The notes under the pieces are model-generated. The model made no database searches. It saw only the letters and a list, made by a program, of their open reading frames with translations, and was not told where the DNA came from. The translations under genes were made by a program, and so were the position numbers. From the human T2T-CHM13v2.0 reference genome, Homo sapiens: a stretch of DNA of 64,000 nt. Position 1 is the stretch's first letter, and every line of letters begins with the position of its first letter. Shown here in pieces: positions 4,804-62,906 of this stretch. The stretch lies in the NCBI RefSeq assembly GCF_009914755.1, contig NC_060930.1; one strand, 5' to 3'.

Positions 4804-7800
4804 TTTTTTTTTCTGAACTTTGATTTTAGGTTTGGGGGTACATGCCTAGGTTTGTTACATGGGTAAATTGCATGTCACTGGGGTTTGGTGTACAAATGGT
4901 TTCATCACTCAGGTAGTGAGCACAGTAATAGTATCCAACAGGTAGCTTTTCGACCCTCACCTTCCTCCTACACTCCCTCATCAGGTAGGTACCAGTGTCT
5001 ATTGTTTCCTTTGTGTCCATGTATACTCAATGTTTAGCTCCCACTTAGGAGAACACGTGGTATTTGTTTTTCTGTTCCTTAGGATAATGGCCTCCAGCTG
5101 CATCCATGTTGCTGCAAAGAACATAATTATTTTTTCTGGCTTTGTAGTATTCCATGATATATATGTACCACATTTTCTTTGTCCAGCTCACCAGTGATGC
5201 ACATCTAGGTTAACTCCATGTCCTTGTTATTGTGAAAAGTGTTGTGATGAACATATGCATGCATGTGTCTTTATGTTAGAACAATTCATATTCCTTTCGG
5301 TGTATACCCAGCAATGGAACTGCTGGGTTGAATAACAGTTGTTTTAAGTTCTTTAAGAAATCTCCAAGCTGCTTTCCACAGTGGCTGAACTAATTTACAG
5401 TCAGCAGTGTAAAAGCATTCCTTTTTCTCTGCAACCACACCAACAACTATTATTTTTTGACTTTTTAGTAACAGCCACTCTGGTGTAAGATGGTATCTCA
5501 TTGTGGTTTTGATTTGCATTTCCCTAATGATTAGTAATTTTGAGCATTTTTTCACATGCTTGTTGGCCGCATGTATGTCTTCTTTTGAGAAACATCTGTT
5601 TATGTGCTTTGCCCATTTTTTAATTGGGTTGTATGTTCTTTGCTTAAGTTCCTTACAGATTCTGGATATTAGACCTTTGTCAGATGCATACTTTGCAAAT
5701 ATTTTCTCCCGTTCTTTAGCTTGTCTGTTTACTCTGTTGATAGTTTATTTTGCTGTGCACAAGCTTTTTAATTAGGTCACCCTTATCAATTTTTGTTTTT
5801 GTTGCAATTGTTTATGGAGACTTCATCATAAAATCTTTGCCAAGGCCTATGTCCAGAATGGTATGTCCTGCATTTCCTTCTAGGGTTTCTATAGTTTTAG
5901 GCTATAAAGCCTTTACATTTTAAGGCTTTAATCGATTTTGAGTTAATTTTTATATGGTAAAAGGTAGGTGTCTAGTTTCAGTGTTCTGCATGTGACTAGA
6001 CAGTTATCCCAGAGCCATTTATTGAATAGAGTCCTTTTCCCATTGCTTGTTATTGTCAACTTTGTTGATGATCAGATGGTTACAGAGGTATGCAGCTTTA
6101 CTTCTGGATCCTTGAACCTGTTCAATTGGTCTATGTATCTATTTTTTTGGTACCAGTACCACGCTATTTCGGTTACTATAGCCTAGTAGTATAATTTGAA
6201 GTTGAGTAGTAAAATGTCTCAAGCTTTTCTCTTTTTGCTTAGGATGGCTCTGGCTATTCAGGTGCTTTCTTCTTGTGGCTAATGTGAATGGAATTGTGTT
6301 CTTGATTTGGGTCTCAGCTTGGACATTACTAGTGTTCAAGTATTACATTAGCATTATAGAAATGCTACTGATTTTTTGTACATTGATTTTGTATCCTGCA
6401 ACTTTACCAGAGTTGTTTGTCAGATCTAGGAACCTTTGGGCAGAGACTATGTGGTTTTCTAGGTGTGGAAGCATATCATCTCTGAAGAGAGAGAGTTTGA
6501 CTTCCTCTATTCCTATTTGGATGGCTTTTCTTTCTTTCTCTTGCCTATTGCTCTGTCTAGGACTTCCAGCACTGTGTCGAACAGGAGTGGTGGTAGTGGA
6601 CAACCTTGTGTTGTTCCAGTTCTCAGGGGGAAGCTTCCAGTTTTTGCCTGTTCAGTCTGACATTGGCTGTGGGTTTCTGACAGATGGCTCTTATAATTTT
6701 GTGGTATGTTCCTGTGATGACCAGTTTATTGAGGGTTTTTATCATAAAGGGATGTTGAATTTTATCAAGACTTTTATGCTTCCATTGAGATGATCATGTG
6801 GTTTTTGTTTTTAGTTCTGTTTATGTGATGCATTATATCTGTTGATTTGTATATATTGAACCAACCTTGTATCCCAGGAATAAGTCCGTCTTAGTCATAG
6901 GAGATTAGGTTTTGTTGGGCTGCTAGATTTGGTTTTTGATATTTTATTGAGGATTTTTTGCATCTATGTTCTTCAGGGATGCTAACCTGAAGTTTTCTTT
7001 TTTCATTGTGTCTCTGACAAGTTTGGGTATCAGAATGATGCTTGCCTCAAAGAGTGATTTAGGGAGGAGTACCTTCTCCCCAGTTTTTTGTAATAATTTC
7101 TGTAGGTTTGGTATGAACTCTTCTTCATACATCTGGTAGAAATTGGCTTGAATCTGTCTGGTCCAGGGCTTCTTTGGTTGGTAGGATTTTTATTACTGAT
7201 TCAATTTTAGAACTCATTATTGGTCTGTTCATGATTTCAATTTCTTCCTGGTTCAATCTTAAGAGGTTGTATGTTTCCAGGAATATATCCATTTCTTCCA
7301 GGTTTTCTAGTTTATGTGCATATAGGTATTCATAATAGTCTCTGAGGGTTTCGTGTGTTTCTGTGGGGTAAGTTGTAACGTCACCTTTGTCATTTCTGAG
7401 TGTGTTCATTTGGATCTTCTCTATTTATTAATCTAGCTAGCCATCGATCAGTATTGCTTATTCTTTGGAAGGACCAACTTTTGGTTTGATTTTTGTATAG
7501 ATTTTCACATCTCAATTCCAATCAGTTGACCTCTGATTTGGTTATTTCTTTTCTTCTGGTAGTTTGGGGTTGGTTTTCTCTCACTTTTCTTGTTCCTCTA
7601 GGTGTGATGTTAGTTTGCTAATTTTAGATCTTTCTAATGTCTTGATGTAGGTGATTAGTATTATAAACTTTCCATTTACCTTTTAACACTGCTTTAGCTG
7701 TGTCCCAGAGATTCTGGTACGTTGTATCTTTTTTATTTTCAATAGTTTCAATGAACATTTTATTTCTGCCTTAATTTCATTCTTTACCCAAAAGTCATCC

Positions 7801-46420: not shown

Positions 46421-46784
46421 TGTTATGTGCTAAAGGTTTGTGTCCCCTCAAAATTCATATATTAAAATACTAACACCCAATGTGATGGTATTAGGAGGTT
46501 AGGCCTTTTAGATATAATTAGGTCATGAGGTGGAGTTCTCATTAATAAAATTAATGCCTTTAGCTTAAAAAAAAAAAAAAAAAAAGGAAGAAACACAGGA
46601 TCTCTTTCCACCCTGTAAGGATACAATGAGACAACAACCACCTGCAAACCAGGAAAACAGCCCTCACCAGAACTCACTATGCTGGCATCCTGGCTTCAGA
46701 TTTCCCAGTCTCCAGAGAAAAAAAATGTCTGTTAAGTCAACTATCTGTAATATTCTGTTATAGCAGCCTGGACTAACTAAAACA
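46421..46784 (+). mobile_element. MLT1A-type MaLR solo LTR
   Basis: 'gtttgtgtcccctcaaaattcata...ccctcaccagaac...ttatagcagcc...actaaaaca'. Confidence 0.9.
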
Positions 46785-48178: not shown

Positions 48179-48553
48179 TTTTATTTTTTAACTTTTACTT
48201 TAGATTCAGGAAGCACATGTACAAGATTGTTACAAAGGTATATTGTGTGATGTTGAGGTTTGGAGTATGATTGAAACTGTCGCCCAGGTAGTGGGCATAC
48301 TACCAATAGGTAGTTATTGAACCTTTGCCTCCCTCCCTTCCTCCTTTTTTTGGAATCCCTGGTGTATATTGTTCCCTTCCTTGTGTCCATGTGTACCCAA
48401 TACTTAGCTCCCACTTGGAAGTGAGAACATTCAGTACTTGGTTTCCTCTTTATTAGTTAATGTAGGATAACAGCCTCCAGCTGCATCTATGTTACTGCAA
48501 AGGACATGATTTCATTCTATTTTATGGCTGTCTAGTACTTCATGTTGTATATT
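48179..48553 (-). mobile_element. L1PA16/17-type 3' end
   Basis: 'ggtatattgtgtgatgttgaggtttgg...cccaggtagtg...gcaaaggacatgatttc'. Confidence 0.9.
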
Positions 48554-59707: not shown

Positions 59708-60773
59708 ATGGGTAAATTGAGTGTCACAGGGGTTTAGTGTACCGACTATTTTGTCACACAGGTAATGAGCATAGTACTTGCTAGGTAATTTTTCAATCCT
59801 CACTCTCCTCCCACCCTCCATCCTCAAGTAGGCCCAGGTGTCTGTTGGTCCCTTATTTGTGTCCGTGCATACTCAATGTTTAGCTCCCACTAAGTGAAAA
59901 CATGTGTTATTTGCTTTTCTGTTCCTGGGTTAAGCTTAGGATAATGGCCTCCATATCCTTTTCAGCAACATGGATGGTGCTGATTTTGTTCTTTTTTATG
60001 GCTGCATAATATTCCATGATGTGTATGTACCACATTTTCTTTATCCAGTCTACTGCTGATGGGCATCTAAGTTGATTCCATGTCCTTGTTATCGTGAAAA
60101 GTGTTGTGATGAATATATGCATGCATGTGTCTTTATGTTAGAAAGATTTATATTCCTTTGAGTATATACCAAGTAATGGGATTGCTGAGTCGAATGGTAG
60201 TTCTGTTTTAAGTTCTTTGAGAAATCTCCAAACTGCTTTCCACTGGCTGAACTAATTTACATTTCTACCAATAGTGTATAAGTATTCCCCTTTCTCTGCA
60301 CCTTGCCAGCATCTGTTATTTTTTTGGCTTTTTAATAGCCATTCTGACTGGTCTGAGATAGTATCTCATTTTGATTTTGATTTGAATTTCTCTAATTATT
60401 AGTGATATTCAGCATTTTTTCATATGCTTGTTGGCCACGTGTATGTCTTCTTTTGAGAAGTGTCTGTTCATGTTCTTTGCCCATTTTTAATGGGGTTGTT
60501 TGGTTTTTGCTTGTTGATTTGTTTCAGTTCCTTTATAGATTCTGGATATTAGTCCTTGTGGGATGCATAGTTTGTGAAAATTGTCTCCCATTTTGTAGAT
60601 TGTCTCTTTACTCTGTTGATAGTTTCTTTTTCTGTTCAGAAGCTCTTTAGTTTAATTAGTTTACACATGCCAATTTTGTTTTTGTTGCAATTGCTTTTGA
60701 AGCTATCATTAGATCTTTCCCAGGGCCAATGTCCAGAATGGTATTTCCTAGATTTTTCCAATATTTTAATAGT
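59708..60773 (-). mobile_element. L1PA14/15-type 3' region lacking its extreme 3' end and tail
   Basis: 'ggtaaattgagtgtcacaggggttt...caagtaggcccaggtgtctg'; ORF2 C-terminal remnant '[20 protein letters not shown]'. Confidence 0.92.
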
Positions 60774-61156
60774 ATAATTTCATCTGAAATGCCATCAATT
60801 AATAGAAAAGCATTTCTGACTTGAAAAGAAATTATGTTGTTACCTCTTCAAATACAATTTGAGAGTCATCTCTATGTTGCCATATAGTTGTCTTGATGAC
60901 AAATATTATGCCCTCACATTGCTATTAGGTTTATAATAGGAGCAGTAAAGAGAGGAATAGAGCCACCACAGAATAAGAAGAAAAATATTTTGATACCTTT
61001 TTTAGTGTTGCAACATAGAATAAACGAATAAATGTCTCTAGTACCAAATAATGGATAGGTTTGTCACTGTGGCAAATATTTCTATTCTTAAATGTCAGTA
61101 TTGTATGACTATAGGTTAGTTTTTAAGGCAAATCATTAAAATGTATCTTTCTATCA

Positions 61157-61183
61157 TTATATATATGTAACAAAGGGAACACT

Positions 61184-61217
<34 letters not shown>

Positions 61218-61318
61218 CACTTACATACTTTTGAAGCTCGATGGAGCTGGAGGCCATTATCCTATATATACTTCAATATAGGATAATGGCCTCCAGCTCC
61301 ATCGAGCTTCAAAAGTGT

Positions 61319-61354
<36 letters not shown>

Positions 61355-61360
61355 TTCAAA

Positions 61361-61394
<34 letters not shown>

Positions 61395-61610
61395 CACTTC
61401 AAAAGTATGTGTATATATATATACACACTTCAAAAGTGTGTATATATATATATACACTTCAAAAGTGTGTATATATATATACACACATCTATAAGCTTCA
61501 AAAGTGTGAGTGTATATATATATATACACATATACATATACATATATATATACACACACTTTTGAAGCTCGATGGAGCTGGAGGCCATTATCCTATATGC
61601 TTCAAAAGTG

Positions 61611-61644
<34 letters not shown>

Positions 61645-61846
61645 GATATATGTATATATACACACATATATATGTGTGTATATATATACATATCTGTGTA
61701 TATATATACACACACACTATATATACACTTTATATATATATACACACACATATATGTAATTGTTCCCTTTGTTACACATATATAACAATTGACGATATAT
61801 ATACACTTCAAATACATACAAATAGAGTTTAGATATATATACTTCA

Positions 61847-61878
<32 letters not shown>

Positions 61879-61890
61879 TATACTTCAAGT
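61157..61890. repeat. Complex nested palindromic (TA/CA)n minisatellite
   Basis: Outer inverted arms, a perfect 41-bp hairpin and repeated acacttcaaaagt units. Confidence 0.95.
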
Positions 61891-62259
61891 CATAATGGTT
61901 CAAGAAACTAGAGCAGAAAGAGTAAACAGTAAGGGGCGAGGAATAATATTTGAAAGACGTGGGATTTAGACAACATCTTGAGAACAGGTACTGGGTGTTT
62001 TCATCTCTGTAGTAGAATGAATGTTGTCATGCAGTATTTGTATAATAAACGTTTGTGGAACTACATTTATTGCTAGCCATAGGAAAAGATATTTCACTTA
62101 GGAAAAGTACTGTACAAAATGGCTGGAGGGATGGGGGACACAACTATGTTTGTGAAAAGAATGCTAACTCAGGGAGACAGCTGGCATTTTGGCAGAGTGA
62201 GAGGTGAAGCTGGCAATGTCAGCTCCTGATCATTTATATCTTCTCTGATGTTCCTGTCT

Positions 62260-62647
62260 GCCAAGAAATAGAATCCAGCTAAATGCCCATCAGTGAATGA
62301 ATGAAGAAAATGAGGCATATATGCACAGTGGAATAATATTTAGCATTTAAAAGAAGGAAATCTTATCATTCGCATCAATATGAATGAACCTGAAGGACAT
62401 TATGCTAAAAGAAATAAGCCAGGCACACAAAGACAAATGCCACATGATCTCATTTATATGTGGAATCTAAAAATGTTAAACTCATAAAGGGTAGAATGGT
62501 GGCTACCAAGCATTTAGAGTACTAGAAAGTTAGGGAGATGTTAGTCAAAGGAAACAAAATTTTACTTAGGAGAAATAAGTTCAAGAGATCTATTTATAAA
62601 ACATGGTGACTATGTTTTATAGCAAGGTGCTATTTTCTTGAAAATTT
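62260..62647 (+). mobile_element. L1MA7/8-type 3' end
   Basis: 'gaacctgaaggacattatgcta...ataagttcaagagatcta...catggtgactat'. Confidence 0.85.
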
Positions 62648-62906
62648 CAACAACAAAATTAAAAAAAATTGAGTGAGCCATACACCTGCTTTACTTAGAA
62701 AAAACATGTCAATTTTTTATATATACTGTATACTGAAGATTTTGTTAAGAGGGTAGATTTCATGTTATGTGGTCATATTTTAAGTAAATATAAAGGGTAC
62801 TAATGCAATTTTCTTACACGGATATGTTGCATAGTGGTGAAGTTTGGGCTTTTAGTGTATCCATCACCTAAATAATGTACACTGTACCGATTAAGTAATG
62901 TCTCAT

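What the first reader, a model, noticed from the sequence alone, without database searches (positions are those of the whole stretch)
61227..61316. Perfect 41-bp hairpin built around a captured 25-nt L1 fragment
Seen: 61227-61267 and 61276-61316 are exact reverse complements with an 8-nt loop (atacttca). A third identical arm lies at 61558-61598. The stem core taggataatggcctccagctccatc matches the L1 antisense segment near the ORF2 end/3' UTR (compare 5080-5104, one mismatch), yet there is no other L1 sequence, tail or TSD here. The adjoining 'agctc' is a fold-back copy of 'gagct' in the fragment. The CpG is intact in all three arms, suggesting youth. Inference: a templated-insertion repair scar (Pol theta/MMBIR-like) at a (TA)n break. 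It could extrude a cruciform and, if transcribed, form an shRNA-like hairpin complementary to many old L1 copies (speculative).
Basis: partly seen in the sequence, partly recalled or inferred. Interest (0 to 1): 0.8.

Follow-up and report, generated by a model that had tools for sequence, protein, structure and literature searches.

The report
L1-tagged hairpin in unstable TA-rich repeat
A real, perfect 41-base-pair DNA hairpin carrying a 25-base piece of an old LINE-1 element sits in an unstable TA-rich repeat in a human gene desert. It is most likely a neutral scar of break repair and fold-back copying, not a functional element.

Summary
61227-61267 and 61276-61316 are exact reverse complements around an 8-nt loop, and 61558-61598 is a third identical arm. 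The 25-nt core is a genuine LINE-1 ORF2 C-terminal piece. It has 336 exact and 16,652 copies at ≤3 mismatches in the genome, and 30 of 30 sampled copies share one context. Its junction with the flank is unique to this locus.

The hairpin lies in a locus-specific 629-bp TA/CA-rich minisatellite of TTCAAAAG units bounded by a 25-nt inverted repeat. Removing 36 nt (61277-61312, the exact reverse complement of 61231-61266) leaves an ordinary unit, and a CTTCAA direct repeat marks the spot. The third arm sits in a direct paralogue that lacks only the loop and inner arm.

Best reading: an L1-derived filler patch, then fold-back template switching or the converse deletion. Order and age need ape orthologues, which I could not get. 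The 'agctc' fold-back and CpG-youth arguments are weak. The RNA idea is untested and unlikely. This is a new example of known processes, of modest interest.

The parts
61157..61181 (+). Left copy of the 25-nt outer inverted repeat (TTATATATATGTAACAAAGGGAACA) bounding the 629-bp block
   Evidence: 61157-61181 vs 61761-61785, 96% over 25 nt, centre 61471; genome-wide, 11 hits at <=1 mismatch against 14 for the reversed control, so it is not a repeat family.
61179..61220 (.). (AC)n tract left of the hairpin
   Evidence: TRF: period 2, 21 copies.
61227..61267 (+). Arm 1. An inverted repeat unit (ACTTTTGAAGCT), then C, then the L1 25-mer in sense, then TAT
61240..61264 (+). 25-nt LINE-1 ORF2 C-terminal fragment, sense. 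The same piece lies at 61279-61303 (antisense) and 61571-61595 (sense)
   Evidence: the frame around the 25-mer in genomic copy L032 aligns to residues 1161-1274 of the 1275-aa LINE-1 ORF2 protein (8sxt_A), E 1.7e-14; WMELEAIIL aligns to WMKLETIIL.
61268..61275 (+). 8-nt loop ATACTTCA. It is part of an ACTTCAA repeat unit (61270-61276) in the array's usual orientation
   Evidence: (family D8): TATATATACTTCAA recurs exactly at 61834-61847.
61276..61316 (-). Arm 2, the exact reverse complement of arm 1
61277..61312 (-). 36-nt segment that is the exact reverse complement of 61231-61266. It is flanked by the 6-nt direct repeat CTTCAA (61271-61276 and 61307-61312). Proposed fold-back copy
   Evidence: Removing it leaves a unit that matches the six L1-free units at 29-30 of 34 positions.
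61318..61555 (+). Locus-specific TA/CA-rich minisatellite, units (TA)n-CAC-TTCAAAAG-TGTG, periods 29, 31 and 43. All five TTCAAAAG cores in this stretch (61355-61497) point the same way
   Evidence: the unit ACACTTCAAAAGTGTGTATATA has 2 of 2 genome hits (<=1 mismatch) at this locus.
61489..61510 (+). L1-free unit CTATA|AGCTTCAAAAGTGTG, an 'empty-site' paralogue of the unit carrying the L1 piece
61556..61598 (+). Arm 3, identical to arm 1 over 41 nt. It forms a 43-nt perfect inverted repeat with 61276-61318
61599..61611 (+). Unit GCTTCAAAAGTGT directly after arm 3. It pairs with 61556-61568 as a 13-bp stem, with the L1 piece in the 30-nt loop
   Evidence: DNA fold -13.6 kcal/mol, z -5.2; direct alignment of 61205-61360 with 61536-61650 shows copy 3 lacks only 38 nt (loop plus inner 30 nt of arm 2), apart from a 6-nt gap in a low-complexity run plus 6-nt and 4-nt indels.
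61611..61758 (.). TA/CA/TG-rich palindromic simple repeats
61761..61785 (-). Right copy of the outer inverted repeat, embedded between TA-rich repeats on both sides

Best explanation
The hairpin is a neutral structural scar in an unstable, locus-specific TA/CA-rich minisatellite. It is not a gene or a regulatory element.

Step 1 (inferred): a break in the array was patched with about 26 nt of filler. The filler is one untemplated C plus 25 nt copied from the 3' end of LINE-1 ORF2, from L1 DNA or cDNA, with TA microhomology on one side. This gave inverted unit, L1 piece, direct unit: a short-stem hairpin with the L1 piece in its loop, as copy 3 (61556-61611) still shows.

Step 2 (inferred from the paralogy): a segment of about 100-150 nt containing this arrangement was duplicated in direct orientation 331 bp away.

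Step 3 (sequence consistent, polarity inferred): in copy 1 the nascent strand, after copying ACTTCAA of the next unit, folded back on itself. It copied 36 nt (61231-61266) as their reverse complement (61277-61312), then returned to the template. That turned a 10-bp stem with a 33-nt loop into a 41-bp perfect stem with an 8-nt loop and left a CTTCAA direct repeat.

The same fold-back habit explains the 25-nt inverted repeat bounding the whole block. What the element does today is structural only: it can form hairpins or cruciforms and is probably prone to deletion.
For: - The arms are exact and far beyond chance.
- L1 identity: 336 exact and 16,652 copies at <=3 mismatches; 30 of 30 sampled copies share one flanking context; the frame matches the ORF2p C-terminus.
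- The L1-flank junction has 3 of 3 genome hits (<=2 mismatches) in this locus, so it is not a dispersed element.
- The repeat unit is locus-specific, and the outer inverted repeat is not a family.
- An L1-free AGCTTCAAAAG unit acts as an empty-site paralogue.
- The 36-nt segment is the exact reverse complement of 61231-61266, is bracketed by CTTCAA, and its removal leaves a unit matching the others at 29-30 of 34 positions.
- Copy 1 and copy 3 align directly and, apart from a 6-nt gap in a low-complexity run plus 6-nt and 4-nt indels, differ only by the 38-nt loop plus inner arm.
- The block holds every perfect inverted repeat in the window (arm >=14, spacer <=30) and folds at -170.5 kcal/mol against -60 for shuffles.
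- Literature: template switching makes perfect hairpins in one event, with over 6,000 inferred in primates (PMC10710096, abstract and passages). TA repeats break and are repaired by MMEJ with short templated duplications (PMC13645644, passages). Class 2 templated sequence insertions show microhomology and untemplated bases, with no TSD and no poly(A) (PMC5110952, passages).
Against: - No outgroup or second haplotype was available, so neither the insertion nor the polarity of the 36/38-nt difference is shown.
- Either polarity also needs an A/G change and a 2-nt AT indel at the loop.
- An exact match to the family's commonest 25-mer is true of only 336 of 16,652 (2%) present-day copies at <=3 mismatches. 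A random old L1 copy is therefore an unlikely template, though the piece was noticed because it matches.
- 0 of 15 comparison loci with a GTGT(AT)12ACAC tract have a complex perfect inverted repeat with a spacer below 89 nt; the ones of 20 nt or more look like Alu pairs (my recognition). Such microsatellites do not routinely make this structure.
- The enzyme (Pol theta, replicative polymerase, BIR, NHEJ) is not identifiable from the sequence.
Confidence: 0.55

Rival explanations
1. Same ingredients, opposite order. The full 41-bp hairpin formed first and was duplicated whole. Copy 3 then lost the loop and the inner 30 nt of one arm through a palindrome-stimulated deletion.
For: Copy 3 equals copy 1 minus one contiguous 38-nt block. 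Long perfect palindromes are deletion-prone: PATRR size polymorphisms arise by internal deletion (PMC4940405, passages). CTTCAA direct repeats are available for slippage.
Against: Slippage between the CTTCAA repeats predicts ...TATATACTTCAAAAG. Copy 3 has ...TATGCTTCAAAAG, so extra changes are needed, the same number as in the other polarity. This order still needs a fold-back event to make the hairpin in the first place.
Confidence: 0.25
2. The 25 nt are the last remnant of a real L1 insertion, by TPRT or by the endonuclease-independent route. The rest was deleted or overwritten as the TA/CA repeats expanded.
For: The target unit contains CTTTTGAAG, which has a TTTT/G site close to the L1 endonuclease preference TTTT/A (consensus as quoted in PMC1920257 and PMC5110952). 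L1 copies lie nearby at 59840-60756 and 62265-62650. Endonuclease-independent L1 insertions lack a tail and TSD and are 3'-truncated (21 loci; PMC1920257, passages).
Against: There is no tail and no other L1 sequence in the flanks. The piece ends exactly at unit boundaries, with one extra base. An L1-free unit matches the site. At 25 nt the piece is short for an L1 insertion; I did not retrieve the sizes of the reported endonuclease-independent inserts. The neighbouring L1 at 59937-59960 carries a 4-nt-shorter version of the segment and is not an exact template.
Confidence: 0.1
3. The hairpin is transcribed and processed into small RNAs (endo-siRNA or miRNA-like) that pair with old L1 ORF2 3' ends.
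For: As RNA it folds into a 44-bp stem (the 41 perfect pairs plus outer pairs) at -80.4 kcal/mol. The core matches 336 L1 copies exactly and 16,652 within 3 mismatches. Template-switch hairpins have given rise to at least 18 human miRNAs (PMC10710096, abstract).
Against: No Rfam family reaches its gathering score; the best on the hairpin is mir-633 at 50.3 bits against 90. The hub's table lists no gene within 100 kb other than MIR10524, about 14.5 kb away, so no host transcript is known. The same paper names a promoter as the limiting factor and states a preference for a 35-bp stem and a loop of 10 nt or more. Only 25 of 41 stem positions are L1. Expression was not testable here.
Confidence: 0.03
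4. The hairpin is an assembly or polishing artefact of a hard-to-sequence TA-rich region.
For: Palindromes and TA repeats are difficult to sequence (PMC4940405, passages).
Against: There are three identical arms, in two different local contexts, with coherent unit structure. Reads could not be inspected here.
Confidence: 0.03

Closest known systems
Template-switch mutations (TSMs) that create perfect hairpins in one step (Monttinen, Frilander and Loytynoja 2023, PMC10710096; the quasipalindrome-correction model of Ripley is recalled)
   Same: An adjacent segment is copied as its reverse complement, giving perfect pairing at once. A short pre-existing inverted repeat (10-13 bp) is extended inward. 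The size (36 nt) is within the range they screen (15 nt or more).
   Different: There is no ancestral reconstruction here; only a paralogue (copy 3) stands in for the ancestor. The event lies in a repeat array that such screens exclude (they draw from unmasked sequence). The copied segment carries foreign (L1) filler.
Palindromic AT-rich repeats (PATRR11, 22, 17, 8) and cruciform-forming (TA)n tracts
   Same: A block several hundred bp long, TA-rich, full of inverted repeats, strongly folding, and locus-specific in sequence.
   Different: AT content is 73%, not above 90%. It is only 62% self-complementary overall (shuffles 56-59%) and has a mosaic of small palindromes rather than one near-perfect spacerless palindrome. 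No translocation is known to me at this site.
Class 2 templated sequence insertions, endonuclease-independent L1 insertions, and Pol theta/MMEJ templated filler
   Same: A short foreign piece at a presumed break, with no poly(A), an untemplated base at one junction and TA microhomology at the other.
   Different: The piece is only 25 nt. The source copy cannot be identified among 336 exact copies. No pre-insertion allele is available. The enzyme is unknown.
Transposon-derived inverted-repeat small-RNA loci (for example MITE-derived miRNA hairpins; recalled)
   Same: A long hairpin whose stem contains transposon sequence.
   Different: No evidence of transcription. The stem is perfect and longer than typical pri-miRNAs, and the loop is 8 nt. 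Only a 25-nt L1 core is present. It is a single locus, not a family.

Membership tests
Template-switch (fold-back) generated inverted repeat | An inverted fragment of 15 nt or more, at 80% identity or more, to an adjacent source on the same locus | tested here: met
   61277-61312 is the exact reverse complement of 61231-61266 (36 nt); the arms are 41 nt at 100%. Thresholds as quoted in PMC10710096 Methods.
Template-switch (fold-back) generated inverted repeat | A parent sequence lacking the inverted copy, shown by phylogeny or ancestral reconstruction | not testable with these tools
   No primate or other human genomes are held. Only the paralogue copy 3 lacks it, and that is also compatible with a deletion.
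PATRR | Several hundred bp long | tested here: met
   The block 61157-61785 is 629 bp.
PATRR | More than 90% AT (PMC4940405) | tested here: not met
   73.0% AT for the block and 57.8% for the hairpin.
PATRR | A nearly perfect palindrome without spacer | tested here: not met
   Global self-versus-reverse-complement identity is 62.3% (444 of 713 columns). The score of 147 is above 20 shuffles (-140 to -237), but this is far from near-perfect.
Canonical L1 (TPRT) insertion | An intact 3' end with an A-rich tail | tested here: not met
   The piece corresponds to about ORF2p residues 1246-1254 of 1275 and no A-tail follows. In 15 of 30 sampled genomic copies an A8+ run follows at a median of 296 nt.
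Canonical L1 (TPRT) insertion | A target-site duplication of 7-20 bp flanking the L1 sequence | tested here: not met
   The only direct repeat is CTTCAA (6 nt). It flanks the 36-nt fold-back segment, not the L1 piece of arm 1 or arm 3.
Endonuclease-independent L1 insertion / class 2 templated insertion | 3' truncation, no poly(A), no TSD, and a site unlike TTTT/A (PMC1920257) | tested here: inconclusive
   The first three fit. However, the target unit contains CTTTTGAAG (TTTT/G), which is close to the consensus. The required pre-insertion orthologue could not be examined.
miRNA / shRNA-like precursor | A match to a curated RNA family at its gathering score | tested here: not met
   118 sub-threshold hits in 60800-62200 and none at gathering. 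The best on the hairpin is mir-633, 50.3 bits against 90.
miRNA / shRNA-like precursor | A stem of about 35 bp with an apical loop of 10 nt or more (PMC10710096) | tested here: inconclusive
   The RNA fold has a 44-bp fully paired stem (41 of the pairs are the perfect repeat) and an 8-nt loop. This is close but outside the stated preference.
miRNA / shRNA-like precursor | Transcription and precise small-RNA products | not testable with these tools
   No expression data are held. The hub's table shows no gene within 100 kb except MIR10524 at 46647-46693.

The most novel reading that the evidence does not exclude
The locus is a young, still-evolving, possibly human-polymorphic palindrome-building site. 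In the germline or early embryo it is transcribed through, and its perfect 41-bp stem is diced into endo-siRNAs. Their L1 core pairs with hundreds to thousands of old L1 ORF2 3' ends, many of them embedded in mRNAs and lncRNAs. That would be a de novo small-RNA gene born from repair filler plus one template switch.
Probability: 0.03. Interest if true: 0.65.

Novelty: new member of a known kind. Interest (0 to 1): 0.25.

Why it matters
The L1 piece acts as a natural tag inside otherwise featureless TA/CA repeats. It lets individual rearrangement steps be read from one haplotype: filler capture, segmental duplication, and fold-back copying or its reversal.

If ape orthologues and human haplotypes confirm the order, the locus would be a clean worked example of how short inverted repeats in TA-rich DNA grow into long perfect palindromes. 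That process is thought to underlie cruciform-prone fragile sites and some de novo hairpin RNA genes.

As a sequence feature it is probably selectively neutral. Its practical relevance is as a candidate unstable or polymorphic site and as a hard case for sequencing and alignment.

Tried and rejected
- **Dispersed repeat or MITE.** Rejected. The L1-flank junction has only the 3 local hits genome-wide at <=2 mismatches. The repeat unit has only 2 local hits. The outer inverted repeat has 11 hits against 14 for the reversed control.
- **Local L1 as template.** The nearest copy (59937-59960) has a 4-nt-shorter version, and 62265-62650 is strongly diverged. Neither is an exact template.
- **L1 sequence in the flanks.** None found by BLAST of 60900-61200 and 61750-62100 against the rest of the window. 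I noted an 11-nt resemblance of the left flank (TATGTAACAAA) to an L1 3' end I recalled. I dropped it because the orientation does not fit and a match of that length is expected by chance (my estimate).
- **Pfam check of L1 identity.** It gave nothing: 0 families for 3 frames and for 24 open stretches from 3 fetched copies. The PDB sequence search then identified ORF2p.
- **Other individuals' copies of the junction.** Searched as chance human DNA in genome contigs and viral contigs; 0 hits each.
- **PMC8421209 (MMBIR templated insertions).** My query failed on a term-format error and I did not repeat it. That paper and PMC7165422 were seen only in the search listing, and PMC1851657 only in the listing.
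- **Literature on this locus.** None of my seven literature searches was aimed at this specific locus, and none returned a description of it. I cannot say it is undescribed.

Full report
**1. Observation**

The sequence is as described.
- 61227-61267 and 61276-61316 are exact reverse complements (41 nt) around the loop ATACTTCA. 61558-61598 is a third, identical arm.
- The perfect pairing stops at 41 nt; one search reports 46 nt at 96%.
- The second arm and the third arm also form a 43-nt perfect inverted repeat 237 nt apart.
- The single strand folds at -50.3 kcal/mol as DNA and -80.4 kcal/mol as RNA. No shuffle out of 200 came close.
- In the whole 64-kb window, all 23 perfect inverted repeats with arms >=14 nt and spacers <=30 nt lie between 61227 and 61746. 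This one is the longest and has by far the highest dinucleotide entropy (3.74 against at most 2.37).

**2. The core is LINE-1**

- The 25-mer GATGGAGCTGGAGGCCATTATCCTA matches 5080-5104(-) with one mismatch and 48463-48487(-) with three. No shuffle of the window gave any match.
- In the window's genome (T2T-CHM13, handle G000) it occurs 336 times exactly and 16,652 times with up to three mismatches. The reversed control gave 0.
- All 30 sampled exact copies sit in one shared context (...TTTGCAGCAACATG | 25-mer | AGCAAACTAA...CACATGTTCTCACTTATAAGTGGGAGC).
- The open frame around the 25-mer in copy L032 aligns to residues 1161-1274 of the 1275-residue human LINE-1 ORF2 protein (8sxt_A, E 1.7e-14). 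WMELEAIIL aligns opposite WMKLETIIL. Pfam gave nothing.
- So the piece is the extreme C-terminal coding end of ORF2 of older primate L1 families. The subfamily assignment is from memory only.
- At the locus, L1 similarity ends exactly at the 25 nt. The L1 context ...CATG / AGCAAAC... is replaced by ...GAAGCTC / TATATAC....
- The junction TTTTGAAGCTCGATGGAGCTGGAGG has only the three local hits genome-wide at <=2 mismatches. This is not a dispersed composite element.

**3.

- The hairpin lies in a 629-bp block (61157-61785). The block is 73% AT and is bounded by a 25-nt inverted repeat (24 of 25 matches). That repeat is not a repeat family: 11 genome hits against 14 for the control.
- The interior is (AC)n, (TA)n and a minisatellite with periods of 29, 31 and 43 nt. 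Its units read (TA)n-CAC-TTCAAAAG-TGTG-(TA)n. The unit is unique to this locus.
- Seven TTCAAAAG cores point one way. Only the two in arms 1 and 3 are inverted.
- Further right, ACTTCAA motifs at 61805, 61841 and 61882 lead into unique sequence (ATATACTTCAAGTCATAATGG). This suggests the unit was seeded from that flank (inference).
- The block folds at -170.5 kcal/mol against about -60 for shuffles. It is still only 62% self-complementary overall.

**4. Anatomy of the arms**

- In array orientation, the L1-bearing unit reads ATATA | GGATAATGGCCTCCAGCTCCATC | G | AGCTTCAAAAGTGT.
- The L1-free unit at 61489-61510 reads CTATA | AGCTTCAAAAGTGTG.
- GAAGCT is therefore unit sequence. The foreign insert is the 25-nt L1 piece plus one base, with TA shared at the other junction.
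AGCT is also its own reverse complement.

**5. How the hairpin relates to the third arm**

- A direct alignment of 61205-61360 with 61536-61650 shows two paralogous segments. Each has CA-rich sequence, a 41-nt arm, a unit GCTTCAAAAGTGT, (TA)n and CACAC. Apart from a 6-nt gap in a low-complexity run plus 6-nt and 4-nt indels, they differ by one 38-nt block: the loop plus the inner 30 nt of arm 2, present only in copy 1.
- Copy 3 is thus a 13-bp-stem hairpin with the L1 piece in a 30-nt loop.
- In copy 1, the 36 nt at 61277-61312 are the exact reverse complement of 61231-61266 and are bracketed by CTTCAA direct repeats. Removing them leaves a unit that matches the six L1-free units at 29-30 of 34 positions.
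- One intrastrand template switch explains this. After copying ACTTCAA, the strand folds back, copies 36 nt, then returns inside the shared CTTCAAAAGT. That converts a short-stem form into the perfect 41-bp hairpin.
- The reverse is also possible: the hairpin came first, was duplicated, and copy 3 then suffered a deletion. Both orders need the same two small extra changes at the loop (A/G and an AT indel). I cannot polarise them without an outgroup.

**6. Mechanism and literature**

- Template switching is documented to create perfect hairpins in one event, with over 6,000 inferred in primates (PMC10710096; abstract and passages).
- TA-rich tracts form cruciforms, are cleaved, and are repaired by MMEJ with short templated duplications (PMC13645644; passages).
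- Class 2 templated sequence insertions and endonuclease-independent L1 insertions are break patches without a tail or TSD, with microhomology and untemplated bases (PMC5110952 and PMC1920257; passages).
- The locus fits these known processes. The enzyme cannot be named from sequence.
- As a control, I examined 15 other loci holding a GTGT(AT)12ACAC tract (53 in the genome). In 4 of the 15 there are complex perfect inverted repeats of >=12 nt within 800 nt. Those of 20 nt or more look like Alu pairs (my recognition). None has a spacer below 89 nt. So the hairpin is not a routine by-product of such microsatellites.

**7. Age**

- Using recalled rates (0.45e-9 per site per year, about 6e-9 for CpG positions), the chance that three 41-nt arms stay unchanged is 0.64 at 5 Myr, 0.41 at 10 Myr and 0.07 at 30 Myr.
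- The arms are probably young or homogenised, but the intact CpGs alone say little.
- Only 2% of copies at <=3 mismatches are exact today, so the source cannot be narrowed.

**8. Function**

- No Rfam family reaches its gathering score. The many sub-threshold miRNA-model hits, on the hairpin and on the plain TA/CA palindromes alike, reflect generic hairpin shape.
- The hub's table shows a gene desert.
- Palindromes longer than 40 bp number 182,437 in the reference genome and are mostly AT repeats (PMC7680136; passages).
- I rate a functional RNA at about 3%.

**9. Verdict**

The feature is real, striking and locus-specific. It is a new example of known mutational processes rather than a new kind of element. 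Its interest lies in the readable history that the L1 tag provides.

Open points are the order of events, the age, polymorphism, read-level support and expression. None of these could be tested with the tools held.

Noticed in passing
61157-61181 and 61761-61785: A 25-nt inverted repeat (24 of 25 matches) of non-simple sequence bounds the whole TA/CA block. The right copy is embedded in TA-rich repeats on both sides, so it may be an inverted copy of the left unique flank. It is not a genome-wide family (11 hits against 14 for the control).
   Followed up: partly
61805, 61841, 61882: ACTTCAA motifs in TA context lead into the unique flank ATATACTTCAAGTCATAATGG. The minisatellite unit, and the hairpin loop ATACTTCA, appear to be seeded from this flank.
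   Followed up: partly
59840-60756 (-) and 62265-62650 (+): Two L1 3' portions flank the locus at about 0.5 kb and 1 kb. The left one carries a 4-nt-shorter version of the same ORF2 segment (GGATATGGAGGCCATTATCCTAAG). The right one is an older, strongly diverged L1 3' end with an A-rich tail near 62660.
   Followed up: partly
61317-61730: Plain TA/CA palindromes here give sub-threshold Rfam hits (up to 62 bits, E 1e-11) to the human miRNA families mir-3149, mir-1277, mir-568, mir-3688 and mir-4536, and to mir-297/466. Those models evidently describe low-complexity TA/TG palindromes.
   Followed up: no
G000 genome-wide (loci L043-L057): The palindromic microsatellite GTGT(AT)12ACAC occurs at 53 places in the genome. 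In the 15 sampled loci, the only long complex inverted repeats nearby look like inverted Alu pairs.
   Followed up: partly
G000:C2:130.5-132.1 Mb (list): Eight exact copies of the L1 25-mer fall in pairs about 13.65 kb apart within roughly 1.2 Mb of chromosome 2 (130.91-132.05 Mb). This looks like a segmentally duplicated region carrying the same L1.
   Followed up: no
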